Virus record (IMG/VR): IMGVR_UViG_3300044815_000143
Span: 1-56,304 of that record
Strand: one strand, 5' to 3'
DNA length: 56,304 nt
DNA from: a virus
Lineage: Duplodnaviria > Caudoviricetes
The position numbers were made by a program, and so were the translations under genes. The notes under the pieces are model-generated. The model was not told the DNA's origin. It saw only the letters and a program-made list of their open reading frames with translations, and searched no databases. Position 1 is the stretch's first letter; each line of letters opens with the position of its first letter. Positions 6,046-27,125 of the stretch are shown here, in pieces.

Positions 6046-6637
6046 TCAGTGGTCGAAATCCAGATTGTATTCTTTGGGATCAACGTCCTTGGATTTGATG
6101 ATTTGGACATTTTTGATCTGTTTCGGGTTGATGATCACGACCACTGTTTCGCCACTGCCGCCATAATTCTTGACGAGGGCGTAATCAGCCCCATGGTCGA
6201 TGAGGAACTGACGAAGATCACCGGTCAGGCCCGGACGGATGGCTTTGTAATTGATCCCGAGGTTCATCAGCATCTCAATGCGGATCGTGCCGTCCTTGGA
6301 ACGAGCGAACCCACGTTCCAGAACATCTTGCGCGACATCCTTGCGCTTGGATGTGCTGATGAAAGTCTTGATGAACGTCTTGGCCGTATTCTCGTCAACA
6401 CGAACCTCGGAGAGGTTGTTGCCGAGTTCTACGGTCACCTTGTAGACGTTTTTTTCCACCCTTGGCGTACTGTGCGGCCCGCGAATAGCTCGTAGTCAGG
6501 TACACGCCGGGGCCATGTTCCCACGCTCCGGATTCATGCGACTTGACCTCATTGTAGCCACTTTCAAGGCCCTTGCCGCCATGCCACAGAGTGATCTGTT
6601 TGTTGACAGATTCGACGAGAGTAATGATGTCACGCAT
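6046..6637 (-). pseudogene. ADP-ribosyltransferase-like (ART-PolyVal type) gene split by one extra A at the A7 run 6449-6455; possibly intact in vivo
   Basis: ORF 6395-6637 (LWHGG...GPGVYLTTSYSRAAQYAKGG) joins ORF 6046-6459 (KNVYKVTV...ETVVVIINPKQIK) if one A is removed, giving a continuous H-Y-E ART-like pattern. Confidence 0.6.
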
Positions 6638-8868
6638 TAGATTCCGAGGTGAGTTTTGATGACGTTGACATCTCGACGAAGTTCCTTGATTGCTTCTACA
6701 AGCAAGGCGCTCATGTTACCATAGGCCAGTGCAAGTTTTCCGTTCGGGAGAGCCGTGACCACTTGTGGAACCACCGGGCGAACTTCTTGTGCGAGGAAAC
6801 CGATTTGTTCCGGATTGCCGGGAAGGTCGTTACGGGTGAACATAACACCACGCAGAGCATCGACCTTATCCAGAGCGTTGCTGATCGTGGTGACGTTTTC
6901 CTTAAGCGATGCGTCCGACAGTCCAGAGATATCACCGACCGCGACGATGTTACCCTTGGTGTTGATGTCGCCGGTGTCGCGGCGAATGGTAACCGAATTC
7001 GACGTGGCGTTACCGACGATGACCATGGCGTTTGCTGGGCTGGAGACGCGTGTTCCGCTACCATAACCGGCGCCGGACCAGCCGGGGTTCAGGAACAGGT
7101 GGGCGGACGGCTCCAGCGCCATGCTGTCGTCGTTGACTCCATTGGCATTGTCGTTGGTCGTGCCGATGCGCAGTACGGAGAATTCGTACATGGCGTTGGT
7201 GTTGGCGATACCATTCGCGATGATCGAGTTGGCGATGGCGTTGGCCACGGCCGGTGTCGGAAGAGCATAGTCAAAGTTGTTCTGATCAAACGTGACGAAA
7301 CCGCCATCACCAGCGCCCGTGGAGTTGGGGATTTTCTGAATCAGTAGAGCGTGACCCGCGTCGATGATGACGTTCGACCCCGGCAGTTCGAACGTGCTGT
7401 TCAAAAGGGTCAGGGTCGAGTTGGAGATGGCGACGTTGTCGGTGAACTCGGTCGGGCCAGCGACCGTGCCCCCGTTGGCCGTGCTCAGGTAACCGTCGAG
7501 GATCACGATTTCCCACGTGGCGCCGGTGATGTTTGGCGGCAAGTTGCCGTCATAGGCGACCGTATAGACCTTCAGAGCGTTTCCGAAATCCGGGTTGATC
7601 CAGAAATCACCATCTGTGGCGCGGGTGTCATCGTACCAGAAATCACTGTTGGCCGGATCGTTCGGGTCGAGGTTGGTCGAAACGTCTACCGCTCGGAAGG
7701 CGCGCCCGTTCTTGTAGACGTAATCGTCGATGGCGTAGGTCGTCGCCGAGTTCCATGCCCCGAGACCCGTAGGTTCGTCAGAGACTTGCTCAATGATCGG
7801 GTCAACGTTGGTGTGGAAATTGTGCGCCAGACCGTTGCCCAGACCATCAATCTGGCTCTGGAGCAGGGCATCATTGGCGATGCGTTCAGCGCGCTCAGTG
7901 ACGATCAGAGAGGCGTTGTTGGCGATGGCGTTGGCGTTCGTCAGATCGCCCGCAATACGGGCCAACGTTTCTGCTTGCAAAGCGCTGTTGACCAGCGCGA
8001 CGTTGCTGACGACGTTGGCGATGGACTGGGCGAGCAAAGCATCATTGGCGATGCGCTCGACCTTCTCTTGGTTGGCTTCGACAGCCAGATCGTTGATCTG
8101 GTCCGCCAGTGCATCGACCGCCAAGTTGGTGTTGGCGAGGTTGTTGGTCAGGATGAAAACGGCCGCGTTCGTCGAGTTGCCGAGCGCGAGGATTGCATTG
8201 GCGTTCTGCTGAACCGACAGTTTCAGGTTCGTAATGTCAGTCGTGTTGTTCGAGATGTTCGACGTGTTCTGATTGACCGTCAACGTGACGTTGGAGATGG
8301 CGTTGGAAAGCGCGTTGTCGTTGGCCAGACGCAGAGCAGCTTCCGCCGCGATGGCGTTGGACGTGGCGGACGAGTTGGCGTTGATACCGGCGAGGGCCGC
8401 TGCAAGGTTGGTCTGGAAATACGAGACGGTGATCGCGTCTGTGGCGTTGCTGGGCGTGTAGTTCAGCGTCAGGCGTGTGTTGACGGTCGCGTTGGCCAAC
8501 GTGACGTTGGTGCTGTTCTCATCGGTCTGGACAGCCGAGCGCCAGCCCGTGCCCGTGTACACGTCAATGGTCTTGTTCGTGGTGCTGTAACGAACCGACC
8601 CGGCGATGGTCGATCCAGAATCCAGTGGCAGAACGAGGGTGTTGTTACGATAAGCGGCCTCCAGCGACATCTGGCCGGTGGTCAGGTTCTGGACCATGCG
8701 GACGGCGATGACGTTGGTGGTGCTGATGCTGTTGGCGATTTGAAGGTTTTCAATCGCGAGCTTGACCACATAATTGTTGTCGCGGAACTGCTGCGACGAC
8801 TGGTTGATACCGGAAATCGGGTAATCTTGTTCGAAATGCAGCCCAGTACCAGTATCGATTCCGCTCAT
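6637..8868 (-). CDS. Tail fibre protein: coiled-coil shaft, CBM5/12-like motif, C-terminal S74 intramolecular chaperone
   Basis: Repeated ERIANDALL heptads; AWNSATTYAIDDYVYKNGRAF; SDASLKENV...IGFLAQEV...LVEAIKEL. Confidence 0.85.
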   Translation of the reverse strand: MSGIDTGTGLHFEQDYPISGINQSSQQFRDNNYVVKLAIENLQIANSISTTNVIAVRMVQNLTTGQMSLEAAYRNNTLVLPLDSGSTIAGSVRYSTTNKTIDVYTGTGWRSAVQTDENSTNVTLANATVNTRLTLNYTPSNATDAITVSYFQTNLAAALAGINANSSATSNAIAAEAALRLANDNALSNAISNVTLTVNQNTSNISNNTTDITNLKLSVQQNANAILALGNSTNAAVFILTNNLANTNLAVDALADQINDLAVEANQEKVERIANDALLAQSIANVVSNVALVNSALQAETLARIAGDLTNANAIANNASLIVTERAERIANDALLQSQIDGLGNGLAHNFHTNVDPIIEQVSDEPTGLGAWNSATTYAIDDYVYKNGRAFRAVDVSTNLDPNDPANSDFWYDDTRATDGDFWINPDFGNALKVYTVAYDGNLPPNITGATWEIVILDGYLSTANGGTVAGPTEFTDNVAISNSTLTLLNSTFELPGSNVIIDAGHALLIQKIPNSTGAGDGGFVTFDQNNFDYALPTPAVANAIANSIIANGIANTNAMYEFSVLRIGTTNDNANGVNDDSMALEPSAHLFLNPGWSGAGYGSGTRVSSPANAMVIVGNATSNSVTIRRDTGDINTKGNIVAVGDISGLSDASLKENVTTISNALDKVDALRGVMFTRNDLPGNPEQIGFLAQEVRPVVPQVVTALPNGKLALAYGNMSALLVEAIKELRRDVNVIKTHLGI

Positions 8869-10967
8869 GTGAGATTTCCCGCCGTTTTAGTATTGATTCT
8901 GTAGTATTTACCATCAATAAAGGTGAAAATATCGAAGGTCGTTGCGCCATCATCGAACGTAGTAGTATTGTCATCGAAGATAGTTTGGGCAGAAATTGCC
9001 ATGAAAGTGACGTAATACTGATCGAAGTCTACTTGGAAACCTCGGTTCATCGGATCAGGGGTTGCCATAGGATATGCGGCCGGGGTCTGACGAACCGAAA
9101 TGCGGTTCATGACCGTCTCTCCGGCCCCCGGTTTCAGGTAGGCTACAACCGTCGCGGTTTGGAAAGTGGGCATCCAATCCGGTGTGTTCTCGGTCGTTCC
9201 CGTGGCCGTGTGATCGCGCGTGCCGTCCACCGAGGCAAAACCAACTTTATCGATGAATTCATATCGAATGTTAAGGACGCTGGTCGGATGGAGGTACTTG
9301 ATGGGCGCGGTAGATTCAGGCCAAACGAGAGGGTCAGGAACCGGAACACCCGCATTGCTCAGCTTGTAACCGCCAGCGCGCGTCATGGGATCGATCACAT
9401 CGCGATAAAGCACCTCGTACACCACCTTGCCGCCGATTTTGACGGTGGCGAGTTTGTGTTCTCCGAGACGCAACGAAATTGGTCCACCAACGTTTGAAGC
9501 CCTGACCACGTCGCGGATCGCGGTGTAATCGCCCTTCAGACCGCCGACGACGTAGATATTAAGCGTGTTATCAGACCCAACGACCCCAAAGTTGCCATCA
9601 TTTGGACGGAAATATTCGTCCTCATGAACCACATCGGAATAATAAGCCATCATCGGCTTGGTATCCTTGAAGCGCAGCTTGAAAGACACGTTGGTCGTTT
9701 CGCCCGTGCGATACCTCACCAGAACTTTGATCGAAAAAGTTCGGTCCAGTGTCGTGTCGCCTACTTTCGCCCGCACAACAAAAGTGTAGGTGTGATCAGA
9801 ACTGACGTGGCCGAGGACTCCTTCGATGTCGCCAGTAACAGAATTCAACGTGAGGCCCGGCGGAAGAATACCATTCCCATACAGAGAGTACGTGACTGCT
9901 TCACCCGTGGAACAGGTGGCGCGAACACCGAGCGGGAAGACGTTGGCCTCGTACACAGTTCCAATCAAACCGGCATCCGTAGTCCACTTGATAAAGCGCA
10001 GAGGCGCCAAGGCATCTTTCGGGGGCGCGGCTTCAATCATGAAGATGCGCGGGATGGCGCCACTACCAACCGTGATCGGCGCGCCATGATGGTCGCGCAT
10101 GATCACGCGGAAGAAATACAGACCCATCGGCGTTGCCGTGGAGATTTCACCCGTGATCAGGCCGAAGTCGTCCAACGTCAGGCCCGGCGGCAGGCTGTTG
10201 AACGGCTCGACGATCTCTGTTTCGCCTACCAGAGGCTCCAAGGTCAGTTGCGGCGGGAAACCACCCGGCATGTTGATATTGATCTGGTAGGTGTACGGAG
10301 AGCCGCGTGTGTGGCTTCCCGTGGCGATGAAACCACTTCCATCGTCAAGTGCGAACGTCTCGCCCCTGAAATCGGCGCTGTAGCTGAACGGCGGGGACGG
10401 ACCCCACGAGGGTGGCGAGACCGTGCTGTTGGACGCGGTGGCGTGGATCGTGAACTGGCGGTCGCGAGCATATGTGCCGTCGAAGGCGCGAACAGCGAAC
10501 GGGAAGTCCATGGACGTATTGGCGGTCGGCAGAATGCCAACCTTGCCACTGATCTCGCCACTGTTGCTCAGGGACATCCCCGGCGGCAGGAAATCGTGGA
10601 GCAGCGTGTAGGTGATCGTCGCGTTCGAAATCAGCGTGACGATGTCCGTGGCGTTGGCCACGATGGGCACGGCGATGAAATTGTCGATCTCGTAAAACGA
10701 AATCGAGTTCCCGTTAGCCGAGAATTCCACCGAATGGGTGTTGATATAGGCGTTCGAGACGGTCGGAGCGCTGTTGTCCGTCAGGAAGACGTGGTCGGTT
10801 CCTTCGCCCATGAACGTCGCGGTTCGAACCGCTGCGAGCGTGATCGAATTGGCGAACAGGGTGGAGCCATTAGCCGTGGCGTTGGCGGTCGTCGAGTACG
10901 TTACGCTCTCGGCGACATTAGCCAAATCGCCGACTGGCGTAGACCAAACGGGGAAGAAGGTGACCAT
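8865..10967 (-). CDS. Virion structural protein with putative Ig-like (He_PIG) domains
   Basis: Three LPPG(L/M)(T/S)L...G.I.G repeats; TAAATA 5 nt upstream. Confidence 0.75.
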   Translation of the reverse strand: MVTFFPVWSTPVGDLANVAESVTYSTTANATANGSTLFANSITLAAVRTATFMGEGTDHVFLTDNSAPTVSNAYINTHSVEFSANGNSISFYEIDNFIAVPIVANATDIVTLISNATITYTLLHDFLPPGMSLSNSGEISGKVGILPTANTSMDFPFAVRAFDGTYARDRQFTIHATASNSTVSPPSWGPSPPFSYSADFRGETFALDDGSGFIATGSHTRGSPYTYQININMPGGFPPQLTLEPLVGETEIVEPFNSLPPGLTLDDFGLITGEISTATPMGLYFFRVIMRDHHGAPITVGSGAIPRIFMIEAAPPKDALAPLRFIKWTTDAGLIGTVYEANVFPLGVRATCSTGEAVTYSLYGNGILPPGLTLNSVTGDIEGVLGHVSSDHTYTFVVRAKVGDTTLDRTFSIKVLVRYRTGETTNVSFKLRFKDTKPMMAYYSDVVHEDEYFRPNDGNFGVVGSDNTLNIYVVGGLKGDYTAIRDVVRASNVGGPISLRLGEHKLATVKIGGKVVYEVLYRDVIDPMTRAGGYKLSNAGVPVPDPLVWPESTAPIKYLHPTSVLNIRYEFIDKVGFASVDGTRDHTATGTTENTPDWMPTFQTATVVAYLKPGAGETVMNRISVRQTPAAYPMATPDPMNRGFQVDFDQYYVTFMAISAQTIFDDNTTTFDDGATTFDIFTFIDGKYYRINTKTAGNLT

Positions 10968-13419: not shown

Positions 13420-13799
13420 AGACCGTCTCTATCATCGTTCTGTTCTTCGTCGGCATCATCCTGCTGGGCTTCGCCTTCGGCTGGATCGGAACGGGGGCGG
13501 ACATCGTCTCCCCGGCGAACGTCAAGAAACAATGGGCGGAAGCCTATCGCAACGACACCGCCCTGAAGGCTTCGGCCCTGAACGTCTGCGGAGCCGAAAA
13601 GCTCGTGGCAGGCGCGACCTCGGATGCCGAGCGTATCGCCCGCCAGTCGCAACTGAGCGCCTACGAGCAGAACTATGCTCGCATCGCCTCGGACTATGAC
13701 GCGGCCGTCAGCAATGCGTTCGAGGCGAAGTTCGTCAAGCCGGGTGATCTGCCGATCCAAGCGCCGACGTTGGCCCATGCCAAAGCGGCCTGCGAATGA
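13416..13799 (+). CDS. Membrane-anchored protein
   Basis: N-terminal hydrophobic helix; ATGA overlap. Confidence 0.75.
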   Translation: MKTVSIIVLFFVGIILLGFAFGWIGTGADIVSPANVKKQWAEAYRNDTALKASALNVCGAEKLVAGATSDAERIARQSQLSAYEQNYARIASDYDAAVSNAFEAKFVKPGDLPIQAPTLAHAKAACE

Positions 13800-14074
13800 A
13801 ACCCATCGCCATCGGGGCGGTTCTGTGTGTTCTGGGCACAGGGGGTTTAATCGCCTCCTGCGCGCCACAAGTCACACAGGCCCAGCGTGAGCAATGGGCT
13901 CTGCAAGATGCGGTGGCGCGCTCGAACGTCATCCGATCCTGTAAGAACGGCGTTCTGCTGGGTCAGGACCCTCAGTCCGACCGCTATACGATGATCCAGT
14001 TGACGCGCAATGGGATCATCCGTAGCTGGGTTCCGGACGAGGTTGGAAAGAACCCCACGTCGTTCTGTGAATAA
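13796..14074 (+). CDS. Putative small lipoprotein
   Basis: Hydrophobic N-terminus ending IASC; ATGA overlap. Confidence 0.65.
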   Translation: MKPIAIGAVLCVLGTGGLIASCAPQVTQAQREQWALQDAVARSNVIRSCKNGVLLGQDPQSDRYTMIQLTRNGIIRSWVPDEVGKNPTSFCE

Positions 14075-14079
14075 GCTAG

Positions 14080-14109
14080 TTGACGAAACATAACTGGTGT
14101 GAGTAAATA
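14080..14109 (+). promoter_or_regulatory. Promoter of the tRNA-Arg locus (TTGACG -35; GTAAAT/TAAATA -10)
   Basis: TTGACG 14080-14085, 17-18 nt spacer, TAAATA 14104-14109, ATG 5 nt later. Confidence 0.7.
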
Positions 14110-14114
14110 GGACT

Positions 14115-14147
14115 ATGACCTACACCATTTCGAGACGCAGGCGTTAA
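14115..14147 (+). CDS. Putative Arg-sensing leader peptide MTYTISRRRR
   Basis: ATG ACC TAC ACC ATT TCG AGA CGC AGG CGT TAA, directly upstream of two Arg tRNA/tRNA-like genes. Confidence 0.6.
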   Translation: MTYTISRRRR

Positions 14148-14213
14148 TCGCCCCTTCAGCCCAAGCCACAGGTTTGGGCTCGTCTTCGTTCAGGTCTATT
14201 CCCGCATACTTAC

Positions 14214-14301
14214 GACCCGTGTCCCGGCAACTGCCTTCTAAGCAGTTGACATTAAAGCGCTGGAAGGAAGTCGAGAGGTTCGATCCCTCCACGGGTCTCC
14301 A
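14214..14301 (+). tRNA. Non-canonical (D-armless) tRNA-Arg(UCU)-like RNA
   Basis: Acceptor GACCCGT/ACGGGTC + T + CCA; anticodon arm CAACTGC-CTTCTAA-GCAGTTG; T-arm GAGG-TTCGATC-CCTC; only 7 nt between acceptor and anticodon stems. Confidence 0.65.
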
Positions 14302-14317
14302 GTATTAGGAATCCGAC

Positions 14318-14470
14318 ATGAACGTCACCGAACAAGAGTTCAGAGAAGCCGTGGATGAAGCCTACGGTCTCGTTGAACCATATATCGTCGGGGCCAAGAA
14401 AGTTCCGATCCGTGTCGTCACCCTCCGGCGAATTGTCGAGGGCCTGAAACTTGGCTACAAGCTCCCATAG
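14318..14470 (+). CDS. Small hypothetical protein (50 aa) between the tRNAs
   Basis: AGGA RBS; MNVTEQEFREAVDEAYGLVEPY...GYKLP; stop codon lies inside the 5' end of tRNA-Arg(CCU). Confidence 0.55.
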   Translation: MNVTEQEFREAVDEAYGLVEPYIVGAKKVPIRVVTLRRIVEGLKLGYKLP

Positions 14471-14537
14471 CTCAGACGGATAGAGCGTTCGTTTCCTAAA
14501 CGAGAGGTCGCAGGTTCGAGTCCTGCTGGGGGCGCCA
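14461..14537 (+). tRNA. tRNA-Arg(CCU)
   Basis: Canonical cloverleaf GCTCCCA...TGGGGGC-G-CCA; anticodon loop TT-CCT-AA; GGTTCGAGTCC T-arm. Confidence 0.95.
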
Positions 14538-14697
14538 AAATATTTATTTTGCATCTACAGTGACTTAACATCAATGACACAATTTGAACACTATTGTGAC
14601 ACAAAAGTTTAACGATATTAAGTACTTAAAACAATAAAAAGCATAGCTCACGACTAAATACAGACATCGTTCAGTATCTGTATTTGGGGTGGCGACC

Positions 14698-15798
14698 ATG
14701 CTTTCTAAGAAATCGAAAATTCTATTTGTATTGAAGTTCCGTGAAACACCGGGCGGCGATTATTCCTATTCTGCTGGATGGGGTGATGGCAAAGGAAAGT
14801 TCCTGCATAGCGGGCTCTACAACAGCGCCAACATGGTCCACACCATGCTCAAGGAGCAGGGTTACGACACCAAACTGGTCCACGTCATCGACAACAACGC
14901 GATCCACAAAGAGATCGTCAAGTTCGGCGCCACGCACGTCGTGATCGAAGCGTTCTGGGTTGTCCCGTCCAAGTTCGACGAACTGTTCCGGGTCTGCCCA
15001 AATGTCAAGTTCATCATCCGTAACCATTCTGAGTCACCATTCCTCGCCAACGAGGGCATGGCGTTTGAATGGACCATGAAGTACGTCGATAAGCCCAACG
15101 TCATCATGTCCTGCAACGCGCCGCGCATGGTCGAAGAAACCCGCTTCCTCGTCCAGACCAAGTACCCCCATTGGTCCCGCAAAGAGGTGGAGCATAAGGT
15201 TCCGCACCTACCGAACTATTATCCGGTCTCCAAGGATCACAAAAATCCCGGATTTTGGATTCGCGGGGACAACACTGTCCACATCGGCTGTTTCGGAGCG
15301 ATCCGCCCGCTGAAGGCGCACATCACCCAAGCCATCGGCGCTCTAAAATTCGCCGAAGACAAGGGCATGAAACTGAAATTCCACATCAACGGCGGCCGGA
15401 TTGAAATGAACGGAGCCCCAATCCTGAAGAACCTGAGGGCGATTTTCGACGAGTATGCGGGTAAGCACGAGCTTGTCGAGCACGCTTGGATGGCCCACGA
15501 TCAATTCAAGGCGTTGGTGGGCCGTATGGACTTGGTGACGCAGGTATCCTTCTCCGAGACCTTCAACATCGTAGCGGCCGACGCAATCACCCAAGGCGTG
15601 CCCACGATCACCTCCAAGGAAATTTCATGGTCATCGTGCCTGTTCAGGGCTGATCCGACCGAAAGCAATGACATCGCCAATAAGATGGGGCGGGCCTATT
15701 GGGCGCACCGCAATTTCACGTGGTTCAATCCGAGCCGCAAGGGCCTGATCCGTTATAACGCCAATAGCGTCAAGAAATGGACTTCTTATTTCGACTAG
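14698..15798 (+). CDS. Glycosyltransferase (GT-B/GT4-like)
   Basis: GCFGAIRPLK and SFSETFNIVAADAITQGVPTI motifs; TAAATA at 14655-14660. Confidence 0.75.
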   Translation: MLSKKSKILFVLKFRETPGGDYSYSAGWGDGKGKFLHSGLYNSANMVHTMLKEQGYDTKLVHVIDNNAIHKEIVKFGATHVVIEAFWVVPSKFDELFRVCPNVKFIIRNHSESPFLANEGMAFEWTMKYVDKPNVIMSCNAPRMVEETRFLVQTKYPHWSRKEVEHKVPHLPNYYPVSKDHKNPGFWIRGDNTVHIGCFGAIRPLKAHITQAIGALKFAEDKGMKLKFHINGGRIEMNGAPILKNLRAIFDEYAGKHELVEHAWMAHDQFKALVGRMDLVTQVSFSETFNIVAADAITQGVPTITSKEISWSSCLFRADPTESNDIANKMGRAYWAHRNFTWFNPSRKGLIRYNANSVKKWTSYFD

Positions 15799-25803: not shown

Positions 25804-25970
25804 GTGTACGAAATTGGTATTTCTTGACTTCGGGCTCGACTTAAGGCTAAATAGAATTATACGCAGAGGGCTGATCCTCTCGTAACATTACATGGCGGAA
25901 ACTCACCATGGTCGAACGACCCCCGAAGGGGCGGCTCACTGCGCCGCTCATCAATCCCGAACCGGAGGTC

Positions 25971-27125
25971 ATGTTTGACCTAGCCGTATTCATCGGCCGC
26001 TTCCAGCCCTTCCACTTCGGACACCTCCACGTCATCCTGATCGCCCTGTTGCGCGCGAAATTCGTGCTGATCAACGTCGGCTCTCTCGATCTGGCCCGTC
26101 GCCCGGACCACAATCCCCTAACCGCCAGCGAACGCGAATCCATGATCCGGGCCTGTCTGACCCCGGAACAGAACGCCCGCGTCGTCTTCCGTTACTGCCG
26201 CGACTACGGCAACATGCCGTTGTGGACGGCCGCTATCCGCCGCAACGTCAAGGAAGTCGTCGAGGCCAAGGGCTTCGATGATCCCAACGTCACCCTGATC
26301 GGTCACTCCAAGGATCGCAGCAGCTTCTACCTTCGGGCGTTCCCCGAGTGGGACAGCATCGACGTTGAGCCGATGCCCATCGACGGCTGCGGCAACCACA
26401 CCCTGTCGGCCACGCCGATGCGCCGGGCCTATTTCGCCGAAGATGGCGTTTTGGTCGATCACTGGCTGAACCACGAATTCCCGAAATTCATGCCGCAAGG
26501 CGCCATCGACTGGCTGAAGGAATTCAAGACCACCGACGACTATAAGGACATGGTCGAAGAATGGGCCTTCCATCGCAAGTACGACACGCTGTACGACAGC
26601 GAAGCGCGGCGGCGTGGATGGTGGCAGTTCTTCGTGACCGTGGACAACATCGTCGTCTGTAACGGTCACGTCCTGCTGATTCAGCGCAAGAACCGGCCCG
26701 GCCGTAATCTCTGGGCGTTCCCCGGCGGTTTCCTCGAACTCGACGAGTATATCGAACAAGGGAGCCTGCGGGAGCTTCACGAGGAAACCCGCATCCGCGT
26801 TCCGGAAAGCGTTCTCAAGGGCTCCATCGTCACCACCAAGGTGTTCGACAACCCGCACCGTTCGATGCGCGGCCGGACGATCACCCACGCAACTCTGTAC
26901 CACATCGTCCCGAAGGCTCCGAAGCGCCATCCCAAGGAAAGCGCGGCCGACTACAAAGTGCGCCTGAACGAGGCCCTGAAGCGCCCGGAAGTCCGGGCCG
27001 CCGACGATGCCAAGCAAGCCATCTGGATTCCCATCGACGAATTCCTGCAAATGCAGGCCGTCATGTTCGAAGACCATTTCTCCATGGGCGAAGCAATGCT
27101 GGCCCTCCTACCGAAGGAAGACTGA
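25971..27125 (+). CDS. nadM: Bifunctional NMN/NaMN adenylyltransferase - ADP-ribose pyrophosphatase (NadM-Nudix)
   Basis: FIGRFQPFHFGH, LSATPMR, Nudix box PGGF...RELHEET, ADDA; GGAGG RBS. Confidence 0.9.
   Translation: MFDLAVFIGRFQPFHFGHLHVILIALLRAKFVLINVGSLDLARRPDHNPLTASERESMIRACLTPEQNARVVFRYCRDYGNMPLWTAAIRRNVKEVVEAKGFDDPNVTLIGHSKDRSSFYLRAFPEWDSIDVEPMPIDGCGNHTLSATPMRRAYFAEDGVLVDHWLNHEFPKFMPQGAIDWLKEFKTTDDYKDMVEEWAFHRKYDTLYDSEARRRGWWQFFVTVDNIVVCNGHVLLIQRKNRPGRNLWAFPGGFLELDEYIEQGSLRELHEETRIRVPESVLKGSIVTTKVFDNPHRSMRGRTITHATLYHIVPKAPKRHPKESAADYKVRLNEALKRPEVRAADDAKQAIWIPIDEFLQMQAVMFEDHFSMGEAMLALLPKED

What the first reader, a model, noticed from the sequence alone, without database searches (positions are those of the whole stretch)
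14214..14301. D-armless, rearranged tRNA-Arg(UCU)-like RNA with encoded CCA
Seen: a perfect 7-bp acceptor stem, T-arm, 7-bp anticodon stem and CUUCUAA loop, but only 7 nt where the D-arm should be and a roughly 26-nt insert on the variable side. CCGG (14224-27) can pair with CUGG (14260-63), substituting for a D-stem. The anticodon region CCUUCUA is also complementary to UGGAAGG (14261-67), allowing an alternative fold or pseudoknot. The discriminator is U; ArgRS normally prefers A/G73 and D-loop A20. Inference: a nuclease-resistant tRNA, an anticodon-nuclease decoy or a non-translational mimic rather than a decayed gene, since the stems are intact.
Basis: partly seen in the sequence, partly recalled or inferred. 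Interest (0 to 1): 0.72.

Follow-up and report, generated by a model that had tools for sequence, protein, structure and literature searches.

The report
Rewired phage arginine tRNA gene
This is a real, conserved phage gene for an arginine tRNA whose core is wired differently from the textbook cloverleaf, and it belongs to a large class that standard tRNA finders and genome annotations miss.

Summary
The element at 14214-14301 (+) is real and far beyond chance. ARAGORN and Rfam do not call it. Homologues occur in hundreds of phage records (Acinetobacter T4-like, Vibrio T5-sized and other phages) and in IMG/VR contigs, almost always unannotated and usually inside tRNA arrays.

I collected 40 distinct sequences. 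The last two cross, forming a pseudoknot. I read the D/anticodon domain as circularly permuted, with AAGGA standing in for the D-loop (inference).

Evidence for a working AGR decoder:
- The loop CUUCUAA is canonical, and related copies carry CCU.
- No canonical tRNA-Arg(UCU) was called in any locus examined.
- Some copies lie 1-8 nt from neighbouring tRNAs.
- Here it sits 159 nt upstream of a canonical tRNA-Arg(CCU).

A decoy or non-translational role has no support. No RNA or charging data exist.

Earlier AI notes of this scan describe the same class on other DNA. Four literature searches found no paper on it.

The parts
14214..14221 (+). Acceptor stem, 5' strand (8 nt), pairs with 14290-14297
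   Evidence: All 8 pairs show compensatory changes in 42 aligned sequences, 99.1% of cells paired. RNAalifold predicts them on the MAFFT alignment.
14222..14223 (+). Two-nucleotide linker (U, C) in the place of positions 8-9
   Evidence: Variable in the family: position 9 is T 22, C 14, A 4; position 10 is C 29, A 9, G 2.
14224..14228 (+). D-prime helix, 5' strand (CCGGC), pairs with 14259-14263
   Evidence: Two invariant C-G pairs plus three covarying pairs; 99.5% of cells paired. This helix was not part of the covariance model, so the count is independent of it. RNAalifold also predicts it.
14229..14229 (+). A16, proposed equivalent of position 26, facing U at 14247
   Evidence: A in 35 of 40 sequences. 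The 16/34 combination is A/U in 29 of 40 and the exceptions do not covary. The equivalence to position 26 is inference.
14230..14246 (+). Anticodon arm: 5-bp stem, loop CUUCUAA, anticodon UCU at 14237-14239
   Evidence: All 5 stem pairs covary. Cyanophage tRNA-Arg genes match 20-22 nt of this arm exactly. Loop invariance among the IMG/VR hits was imposed by my search pattern.
14248..14250 (+). V helix, 5' strand (GAC), pairs with 14270-14272
   Evidence: In 39 of 41 sequences at least 3 consecutive pairs form in register, against 11% of 1454 cross-sequence pairings. There are 12 distinct 5' triplets.
14251..14258 (+). A-rich linker (AUUAAAGC) between the V 5' strand and the D-prime 3' strand
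   Evidence: A42 and A43 are at least 90% conserved in A1. Their role (groove contacts, or a stand-in for the ArgRS A20 determinant) is inference.
14259..14263 (+). D-prime helix, 3' strand (GCUGG)
   Evidence: as for 14224-14228.
14264..14269 (+). AAGGA(A) segment, proposed mini D-loop (A14, R15, G18, G19, A20/21 equivalents)
   Evidence: AAGGA in 38 of 40 sequences and AAGGU in 2. GGAAGG was part of the search pattern for 35 of the 40. It is also present in the blastn-found phages and in L032:1449-1536, found by the model alone. The role is inference.
14270..14272 (+). V helix, 3' strand (GUC)
14275..14289 (+). T arm: 4-bp stem GAGG/CCUC, loop UUCGAUC
   Evidence: 3 of 4 pairs covary and 98.8% of cells are paired. 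The loop is the canonical T-loop sequence.
14290..14297 (+). Acceptor stem, 3' strand
14298..14301 (+). Discriminator U and encoded CCA
   Evidence: CCA is encoded in 33 of 40 distinct family sequences. The discriminator is G 15, T 13, A 12.
14461..14537 (+). Canonical tRNA-Arg(CCU), the partner gene for the other AGR codon
   Evidence: ARAGORN and Rfam RF00005 at 64.5 bits. The same pairing, with a 1-nt gap, occurs in L039.

Best explanation
The element is a functional phage tRNA-Arg(UCU) of a phage-associated class with a rewired core.

Shown by covariation:
- An 8-bp acceptor stem stacked on a 4-bp T stem. This gives 12 bp, the same total as the canonical 7/5.
- A canonical T loop and a canonical anticodon arm.
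- No D hairpin. The strand just after the acceptor stem (14224-28) pairs with a strand that lies after the anticodon arm (14259-63), forming a D-stem substitute.
- That partner strand sits inside the loop of a short variable-arm-like V helix (14248-50 with 14270-72). The two helices therefore cross, which makes a pseudoknot.

Inferred:
- The D/anticodon domain is in effect circularly permuted. On this reading 14224-28 plays the part of positions 22-25, A14229 of 26, U14247 of 44, and 14259-63 of 10-13. The invariant AAGGA is a minimal D-loop: the GG docks on the T loop, and an adjacent A may replace the A20 determinant of ArgRS. The V helix carries the chain to the T arm.
- The transcript is cut out like its neighbours (RNase P at the 5' end, encoded CCA at the 3' end), charged by host ArgRS through C35, U36 and an A20-like adenine, and carried by EF-Tu.
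- It reads AGA, alongside the adjacent canonical tRNA-Arg(CCU) that reads AGG. These are the two rarest Arg codons of this phage, and presumably of its host.
For: Conservation:
- blastn finds the element in Acinetobacter, Vibrio and other phages. The L022 copy matches 339 phage records, 330 of them over at least 80% of its length. None of the 40 listed rows has a tRNA feature.
- A motif scan of IMG/VR gave 62 loci. Of these, 59 have the full architecture and 3 are identical coding-like false hits.
- There are 40 distinct sequences among 65 rows.

Structure:
- 98.7% of 1030 cells are paired against 68.8% in shuffles. 21 of 25 pairs have changes on both sides. 0 of 500 shuffles reach any observed measure, and sliding the partners drops pairing to 38-46%.
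- RNAalifold on the unfitted MAFFT alignment gives the acceptor (8 bp), D-prime (5), anticodon (5) and T (4) helices, with compensatory changes in 19 of 22 pairs.
- The V helix is supported by a cross-sequence control.
- With model R1 the family scores 72-102 bits and canonical tRNAs at most 26 bits; the only intermediate scores are four diverged relatives at 33-54 bits. The window scores 94.8 bits, but it was in the seed.

tRNA role:
- Neighbouring tRNAs lie 1 nt away in L069 (Thr) and L039 (Arg CCU), and 6-8 nt away in L032, L071, L012, L021 and L009.
- ARAGORN reports anticodon tct only once in all loci scanned (L015), and that call is the rewired gene itself.
- Large arrays carry Arg ACG, UCG, GCG or CCU, while UCU is present only in the rewired form (L009, L062, L071, L073, L074, L077).
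- In four complete phage genomes every RF00005 hit lies in the stretches I scanned with ARAGORN or read by eye. None is an Arg(UCU).
- An anticodon-blind pattern recovered 10 members: 7 UCU, 3 CCU, 0 other. The remaining 15 of 25 loci were non-members. One further CCU copy lies 6 nt from a UCU copy.
- An 8/4 acceptor domain works in E. coli translation in allo-tRNAs (PMC7609411, section 7 read).
- AGA makes up 4.0% and AGG 4.8% of Arg codons in 46 window ORFs.
Against: - There is no expression, processing or aminoacylation evidence for any member. No RNA run holds the window stretch.
- The main bacterial ArgRS determinant, A20, lies in a D-loop that this RNA lacks (PMC9976931). My A20 stand-in is only an inference.
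- On its own, the window sequence folds best into a structure that sequesters the anticodon: -33.3 kcal/mol, against -27.3 for the nested part of the covariation structure.
- The invariance of CUUCUAA, GGAAGG and UUCGAUY among the IMG/VR hits was imposed by my pattern.
- The loci are partial, so the absence of a canonical UCU tRNA is established only for four complete genomes.
- The window record is an estimated 10% of its phage. A canonical tRNA-Arg(UCU) elsewhere in that genome cannot be excluded.
- 7 of 40 members lack an encoded CCA.
- The three-dimensional reading is untested.
Confidence: 0.7

Rival explanations
1. It is a translation-independent tRNA mimic. Candidates are a decoy that soaks up a host tRNA-targeting nuclease, or a mimic that serves another tRNA-binding protein. 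It would not deliver arginine at the ribosome.
For: Host defences that cleave tRNAs, and phage tRNAs that counter them, are documented. From search listings and abstracts only: PMC10264068, PMC11464382, PMC11555353, PMC12445682, PMC13056530. The body is non-canonical and lacks a D-loop carrying A20.
Against: - A decoy needs only the part the nuclease recognises. Here every element needed for charging and decoding is kept: a 12-bp acceptor/T domain, CCA, a T loop and a canonical 7-nt loop with U33 and A37.
- Anticodon variants stay within the Arg AGR box.
- It fills exactly the gap left by a missing canonical tRNA-Arg(UCU) in otherwise broad arrays.
Confidence: 0.12
2. It is a switchable RNA. 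The anticodon loop pairs with the GGAAGG segment, masking the anticodon until some signal arrives.
For: The pairing exists in the window and dominates the single-sequence MFE fold (-33.3 kcal/mol).
Against: - CCU members keep GGAAGG while changing the loop, which breaks the centre of the pairing.
- Part of GGAAGG (the first GG) is already used in the covarying D-prime helix.
- The Tyr-like relatives lack any such complement.
Confidence: 0.04
3. It is a decaying tRNA pseudogene, or a leftover tRNA fragment from integration next to tRNA-Arg(CCU).
For: tRNA finders reject it. It lies beside a tRNA gene that is followed by AT-rich DNA.
Against: - There is compensatory change in 21 of 25 pairs across distant phages.
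- It shares no similarity with the neighbouring tRNA-Arg(CCU), which scores 20.4 bits on R1.
- It occurs in T4-like and T5-sized phage genomes.
Confidence: 0.02

Closest known systems
Canonical bacterial and phage tRNA-Arg(UCU), for example the T4 tRNA-Arg gene (NC_000866 71173-71247) and cyanophage tRNA-Arg genes
   Same: Anticodon loop CUUCUAA, and a stem that matches cyanophage tRNA-Arg exactly over 20-22 nt. Canonical T loop, acceptor stem plus CCA, position inside phage tRNA arrays, and a presumed AGA-decoding role.
   Different: There is no D hairpin. The D-stem substitute is made with a strand lying after the anticodon arm. The acceptor/T split is 8/4 rather than 7/5. There is an extra V helix and a pseudoknot. 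RF00005 and ARAGORN do not detect it. T4 and T5 themselves have no member, with best R1 scores of 22.3 and 25.1 bits.
Allo-tRNAs (8/4 and 9/3 tRNAs of soil bacteria; Mukai et al. 2017, as summarised in PMC7609411 section 7)
   Same: A 12-bp acceptor domain split 8/4, and a long extra region between the anticodon and T arms. The review reports allo-tRNAs with an 8/4 or 9/3 acceptor domain as usable by the E. coli translation system.
   Different: Allo-tRNAs keep a D-arm, carry Ser or Ala identity with anticodons that do not match, and come from bacterial genomes. This class has no D hairpin, its anticodon stays within the Arg AGR box, and it is phage-borne.
[quoted passage not shown]
   Same: There is no D hairpin between the acceptor and anticodon stems, and by coincidence the anticodon is also UCU.
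   Different: The mitochondrial forms are reduced and flexible, with a short T arm and an unpaired connector, and they use adapted mitochondrial factors. This RNA is longer than a normal tRNA (84-91 nt). It keeps a full T loop and rebuilds a D-stem by a long-range pairing.
Bacterial tRNA-Sec (Rfam RF01852)
   Same: The only Rfam family with any score (27.1 bits). It also has an 8-bp acceptor stem and a long extra arm.
   Different: The score is below the gathering cut-off of 47 bits. The anticodon is UCU, not UCA. The T stem is 4 bp, not 5 bp, and there is no D-arm.
T4 small stable RNAs rnaC and rnaD (species 1 and 2), next to the T4 tRNA-Arg gene
   Same: Unexplained small RNAs encoded in a phage tRNA cluster beside tRNA-Arg.
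   Different: R1 does not match them. The best T4 hits fall on tRNA-Gly and tRNA-Thr. They are 139 and 119 nt long.
Circularly permuted tRNA genes of the red alga Cyanidioschyzon merolae (recalled; not checked in any call)
   Same: The idea of permuted order of tRNA segments.
   Different: In the alga the gene is permuted but the mature tRNA is a normal cloverleaf. Here the acceptor halves are in normal order and the mature RNA itself would have the rearranged core.

Membership tests
Canonical tRNA (Rfam RF00005 / ARAGORN cloverleaf) | Detected by the family model at its gathering score | tested here: not met
   No RF00005 hit at 14214-14301 at gathering score or in E-value mode. ARAGORN is silent. 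It calls the rewired gene in 1 of 59 IMG/VR loci. Even at a relaxed threshold it does not call it in L068.
Canonical tRNA (Rfam RF00005 / ARAGORN cloverleaf) | D-arm hairpin between the acceptor and anticodon stems | tested here: not met
   Only 8 nt lie there. Five of them pair with a strand downstream of the anticodon arm.
Canonical tRNA (Rfam RF00005 / ARAGORN cloverleaf) | Acceptor stem plus single-stranded NCCA; T arm with a GTTCRAnyC-type loop; 7-nt anticodon loop with U33 and a purine at 37 | tested here: met
Canonical tRNA (Rfam RF00005 / ARAGORN cloverleaf) | Aminoacylation and use on the ribosome | not testable with these tools
   No RNA run holds the stretch, and there are no biochemical data.
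   All 25 pairs are standard in the window. R1 gives 94.8 bits, but the window was in the seed. Independent support comes from blastn to the KARL-1 copy at E = 2e-9.
tRNA-Sec (RF01852) | Score at or above the gathering cut-off; anticodon UCA | tested here: not met
   27.1 bits against a cut-off of 47. The anticodon is UCU.
Allo-tRNA (8/4 or 9/3) | 12-bp acceptor domain split 8/4 | tested here: met
   The 8th acceptor pair covaries and the T stem is 4 bp.
Allo-tRNA (8/4 or 9/3) | D-arm present; Ser or Ala identity with an unrelated anticodon | tested here: not met
   There is no D hairpin. Anticodons are restricted to UCU and CCU among 10 members found by an anticodon-blind pattern. The allo-tRNA description is from PMC7609411.
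D-armless mitochondrial tRNA | D-arm replaced by a short unpaired connector; reduced overall size | tested here: not met
   The connector is paired through the D-prime helix, and the length is 84-91 nt.

The most novel reading that the evidence does not exclude
A natural tRNA whose D/anticodon domain is circularly permuted, yet which still folds into an L shape and works with ordinary host ArgRS, EF-Tu and ribosomes. The D-stem would be re-formed through a pseudoknot with the loop of a variable arm, and AAGGA would act as a five-nucleotide D-loop. Phages may have fixed this body because it escapes a host factor, such as a tRNA-targeting nuclease or a regulator, that recognises the canonical tRNA-Arg(UCU) core. 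The same design also appears with a Tyr (GUA) anticodon (L009:3908-3997, L071:1603-1691, L074:2978-3067), so it may be a general alternative tRNA architecture.
Probability: 0.4. Interest if true: 0.9.

Novelty: new variant of a known kind. Interest (0 to 1): 0.76.

Why it matters
If these RNAs are charged and used, the cloverleaf is not the only architecture that bacterial translation accepts. That bears on several questions:
- How ArgRS finds its A20 determinant.
- What the ribosome and RNase P need from the tRNA elbow.
- How orthogonal tRNAs can be designed.

There is also a practical point. An arginine tRNA for AGA is being left out of phage annotations. None of the 40 GenBank rows I inspected marks it as a tRNA, and some place a hypothetical protein over it. 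This distorts analyses of phage codon usage against tRNA content. The Felix O1 genome paper, for example, remarks that a tRNA for the over-used AGA codon was expected but not found (PMC3185647, passages read).

It also gives a concrete candidate for testing whether changes to the tRNA body, and not only anticodon-loop mutations, help phage tRNAs evade host tRNA-targeting defences.

Tried and rejected
- tmRNA, or a tRNA fragment at an integration site: ARAGORN finds no tmRNA here. The element is unrelated to the neighbouring tRNA-Arg(CCU).
- T4 rnaC/rnaD: R1 does not match them.
- T5 and T4 as carriers: none. Their best scores are 25.1 and 22.3 bits, within the canonical-tRNA range.
- Felix O1: only a diverged relative at record 25951-26032 (33.1 bits). 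It has loop CUUCUAA, looks 7/5 by eye, lacks GGAAGG and is unannotated. I do not count it as a member of the R1 family.
- Promoter and terminator scan of 13700-14900: 0 promoter-like sites. There were 2 terminator-like sites against 1.4 expected, so it is not informative.
- Pfam on ten neighbouring ORFs: only the tail-fibre domains He_PIG and Peptidase_S74, plus sub-threshold glycosyltransferase hits. Nothing relates to tRNA.
- RNA evidence: no RNA holder is listed for window 13900-14700.
- Literature: four full-text searches returned no paper describing a phage tRNA of this design. Subscription journals and supplementary files were not searchable, so a description there cannot be excluded. 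The Sf14 paper lists a tRNAscan-called tRNA-Arg(TCT) (PMC12482277, passages read). I did not check whether that gene is canonical or rewired.
- The CM-fitted alignment A3 misaligns the V helix of the subgroup with a 3-nt spacer, which gives 94.4% pairing. I therefore also tested V with a position-anchored script and a cross-sequence control.
- The first wide R1 alignment (A2) mixed in canonical tRNAs and was discarded.
- Bacterial genomes: the pattern hit 14 stretches in the species-representative genomes. By R1, 8 are members. Six are MAG contigs, five of them with a tRNA array in the stretch held. Two are isolate contigs with phage genes alongside (anti-repressor, exonuclease, methyltransferase PHROGs). 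I found no sign of a cellular, non-phage copy, but the pattern is strict.

Full report
**Observation**

ARAGORN reports a single gene in the window, a canonical tRNA-Arg(CCU) at 14461-14537. Rfam at gathering score reports only that tRNA. In E-value mode the candidate gets only a sub-threshold tRNA-Sec match, 27.1 bits against a cut-off of 47.

The lone sequence folds to -33.3 kcal/mol, with z = -2.91.

**Context**

The window is a virus record of 56,304 bases, estimated to be 10% complete. It carries tail-fibre domains, He_PIG and Peptidase_S74. There is weak DNA similarity to Caulobacter jumbo phages in a neighbouring ORF.

The element lies 159 nt upstream of tRNA-Arg(CCU). In 46 greedily chosen ORFs, AGA and AGG are the two rarest Arg codons, at 4.0% and 4.8%.

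**Homologues**

- blastn against 50,697 phage records found the whole element at about 80% identity in Acinetobacter T4-like phages. It found weaker matches in Vibrio phages of about 114 kb, in Acinetobacter phage ME3 and in YMC13/03/R2096.
- In the five records I opened, the element carries no tRNA feature. Four of the five copies lie within about 20 nt of a tRNA gene (D417's lies about 450 nt past its last tRNA). In phage Maestro a 'hypothetical protein' is annotated across it on the opposite strand.
- A motif pattern built from these sequences hit 62 IMG/VR loci. Of these, 59 show the complete architecture and 3 are identical coding-like false hits.
- Together with the five phage loci and the window this gives 65 rows and 40 distinct sequences.
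- A second blastn with the L022 copy matched 339 phage records. None of the 40 rows shown has a tRNA feature.

**Structure**

Parsing the 40 sequences by fixed anchors shows this order:
1. 8-bp acceptor stem
2. 2 nt
3. a 5-nt strand CCNNN
4. A
5. 5-bp anticodon stem with loop CUUCUAA
6. 1 nt
7. a 3-5-nt strand (V 5')
8. an A-rich stretch
9. a 5-nt strand NNNGG complementary to CCNNN
10. AAGGA
11. a strand complementary to V 5'
12. 2-3 nt
13. 4-bp T stem with loop UUCGAUY
14. acceptor 3' strand, discriminator and, in 33 of 40 sequences, CCA

I built covariance model R1 with the acceptor, anticodon, V and T helices and realigned 42 hits. I then counted pairs with the CCNNN:NNNGG helix ('D-prime') added as a pseudoknot.

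| Measure | Result |
|---|---|
| Cells paired | 98.7%, against 68.8% in shuffles |
| Pairs changed on both sides | 21 of 25 |
| Shuffles reaching any observed measure | 0 of 500 |
| Pairing with 3' partners slid by 1-3 columns | 38-46% |
| D-prime helix, cells paired | 99.5% |
| D-prime helix, covarying pairs | 3 of 5 |

D-prime was not in the model, so its count is independent of the fitting.

RNAalifold on the plain MAFFT alignment independently predicts the acceptor (8 bp), D-prime (5), anticodon (5) and T (4) helices. Compensatory changes occur in 19 of 22 pairs.

The V helix was partly misaligned by the model, so I tested it with a position-anchored script. In 39 of 41 sequences at least 3 consecutive pairs form, against 11% of 1454 cross-sequence pairings. 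There are 12 different 5' triplets.

D-prime and V cross, so the core is a pseudoknot. In the window all 25 pairs are standard.

**Interpretation of the core (inference)**

- The strand after the acceptor stem runs straight into the anticodon stem through one A. D-prime should therefore stack on the anticodon stem, with its 5' strand in the place of canonical positions 22-25 and its 3' strand in the place of 10-13.
- A16 and U34 (A/U in 29 of 40) would then correspond to the 26-44 layer.
- The AAGGA that follows the 10-13-like strand would correspond to a minimal D-loop (A14, R15, G18, G19, A20/21).
- The V helix and the A-rich linker would bridge the two chain breaks that such a circular permutation of the D/anticodon domain creates.
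- Anecdotal support: of the three Tyr-like relatives, the two with non-canonical T loops lack a GG after the D-prime strand, and the one with a canonical T loop keeps it.

**Function**

The evidence favours a working AGR-decoding tRNA-Arg.

1. Everything needed for processing, EF-Tu binding and decoding is conserved. The 12-bp acceptor/T domain is split 8/4. That split works in E. coli translation in allo-tRNAs (PMC7609411, section 7).
2. The gene is packed into tRNA arrays.
   - It lies 1 nt from tRNA-Thr in YMC13/03/R2096 and 1 nt from tRNA-Arg(CCU) in L039.
   - It lies 6-8 nt from neighbours in L032, L071, L012, L021 and L009.
3. Across all loci scanned, ARAGORN reports anticodon tct once, and that call is the rewired gene itself (L015).
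   - Arrays of 13-30 tRNAs carry Arg ACG, UCG, GCG or CCU but have UCU only in the rewired form.
   - In four complete phage genomes all RF00005 hits were inspected and none is an Arg(UCU).
4. Anticodons stay within the Arg AGR box.
   - A model-only hit, L032:1449-1536, is a CCU copy 6 nt upstream of a UCU copy.
   - An anticodon-blind pattern recovered 7 UCU and 3 CCU members and no other anticodon. The other 15 of its 25 loci were non-members.
5. The window and L039 both pair the rewired UCU gene with a canonical CCU gene.

The discriminator varies (G 15, U 13, A 12). The review table for bacterial Arg lists A/G73 and U73, together with A20, C35 and U/G36 (PMC9976931).

**Against**

- No RNA or charging data exist.
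- A20 has no obvious home in this RNA.
- The single-sequence MFE prefers an anticodon-masking fold.
- My pattern imposed part of the observed conservation.
- The window is a genome fragment.

**Distribution**

- In one genome per species of 185,579 prokaryotes the pattern hit 14 stretches. Eight are members by R1.
- Six of these are MAG contigs, five with a tRNA array in the stretch held. Two are isolate contigs with phage genes around them.
- T4 and T5 have no member. The T4 rnaC and rnaD RNAs are unrelated.
- Felix O1 has only a diverged relative at 33.1 bits. Its genome paper noted the lack of an expected AGA tRNA (PMC3185647, passages read).

**Known or new**

Four full-text searches found no description of this design. 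Supplements and subscription journals were not searchable.

Earlier AI notes of this same scan describe the same class on other genomes. I reached the architecture before reading them. From them I took only the Felix O1 lead.

**Verdict**

The alternative pseudoknot and the decoy reading are not supported.
- The best explanation is a translation-competent tRNA-Arg(UCU) with a permuted, pseudoknotted core (confidence 0.7).
- It is a new structural variant of a known kind of molecule.

Noticed in passing
L032:1449-1536, L093:2627-2713 (-), L095:859-947, L097:8489-8577 (-): Rewired tRNAs of the same design carrying anticodon CCU (loop CUCCUAA). The L032 copy lies 6 nt upstream of a rewired UCU copy.
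   Followed up: partly
L009:3908-3997, L071:1603-1691 (-), L074:2978-3067 (-): Diverged relatives (42.5, 53.9 and 38.2 bits on R1) with the same 8-bp acceptor, D-prime and V layout but a GUA (Tyr) anticodon. Two have non-canonical T loops. ARAGORN calls no tRNA-Tyr in the stretches of these three arrays that I held (L009, L071, L074). The rewired design may therefore not be limited to arginine.
   Followed up: partly
L085:2952-3033 (Felix O1 record 25951-26032): An unannotated 82-nt element with loop CUUCUAA, an acceptor stem, CCA and no D hairpin. It looks 7/5 by eye and lacks GGAAGG (33.1 bits on R1). Its 3' end overlaps the start of an annotated HNH endonuclease CDS.
   Followed up: partly
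window 14318-14470 (+): A 50-codon ORF fills the gap between the two tRNA genes. Its stop codon overlaps the first bases of tRNA-Arg(CCU). It has no Pfam match, so it may not be a gene.
   Followed up: no
window 14158-14180 (+): A 10-bp GC-rich hairpin followed by a T-rich tail lies 34 nt upstream of the rewired tRNA. The scan count was not above chance.
   Followed up: no
L001:457-531, L037:5296-5370 (-), L070:6849-6922 (-): ARAGORN calls tRNAs with anticodon CUA (labelled 'Pyl'), which are amber-suppressor-like, in Acinetobacter phages KARL-1 and ME3 and in a related IMG/VR contig.
   Followed up: no
L068:1258-1335, L073:2511-2584, L081:1983-2074 (-): ARAGORN reports tRNAs with four-base anticodons (acta, acca, tatg) in phage tRNA arrays.
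   Followed up: no
L011:64-455, L081:1258-1611 (-): tmRNA genes sit next to or inside phage-like tRNA arrays. The one in L011 carries ARAGORN's asterisk mark (tmRNA*).
   Followed up: no
L068:383-457, 882-949, 6714-6781, 7466-7542, 10069-10141: Five tRNAs of Vibrio phage D417 (Lys UUU, Ala UGC, Trp CCA, a CAU tRNA and Cys GCA, read by eye). Rfam finds them, two of them below the gathering score. Default ARAGORN misses all five. The phage record annotates no tRNA in the 3-kb stretch I opened.
   Followed up: partly
window 6637-10967 (-): Two large adjacent ORFs with tail-fibre-type domains: Peptidase_S74 (the intramolecular chaperone of endosialidase) and He_PIG Ig-like repeats.
   Followed up: no
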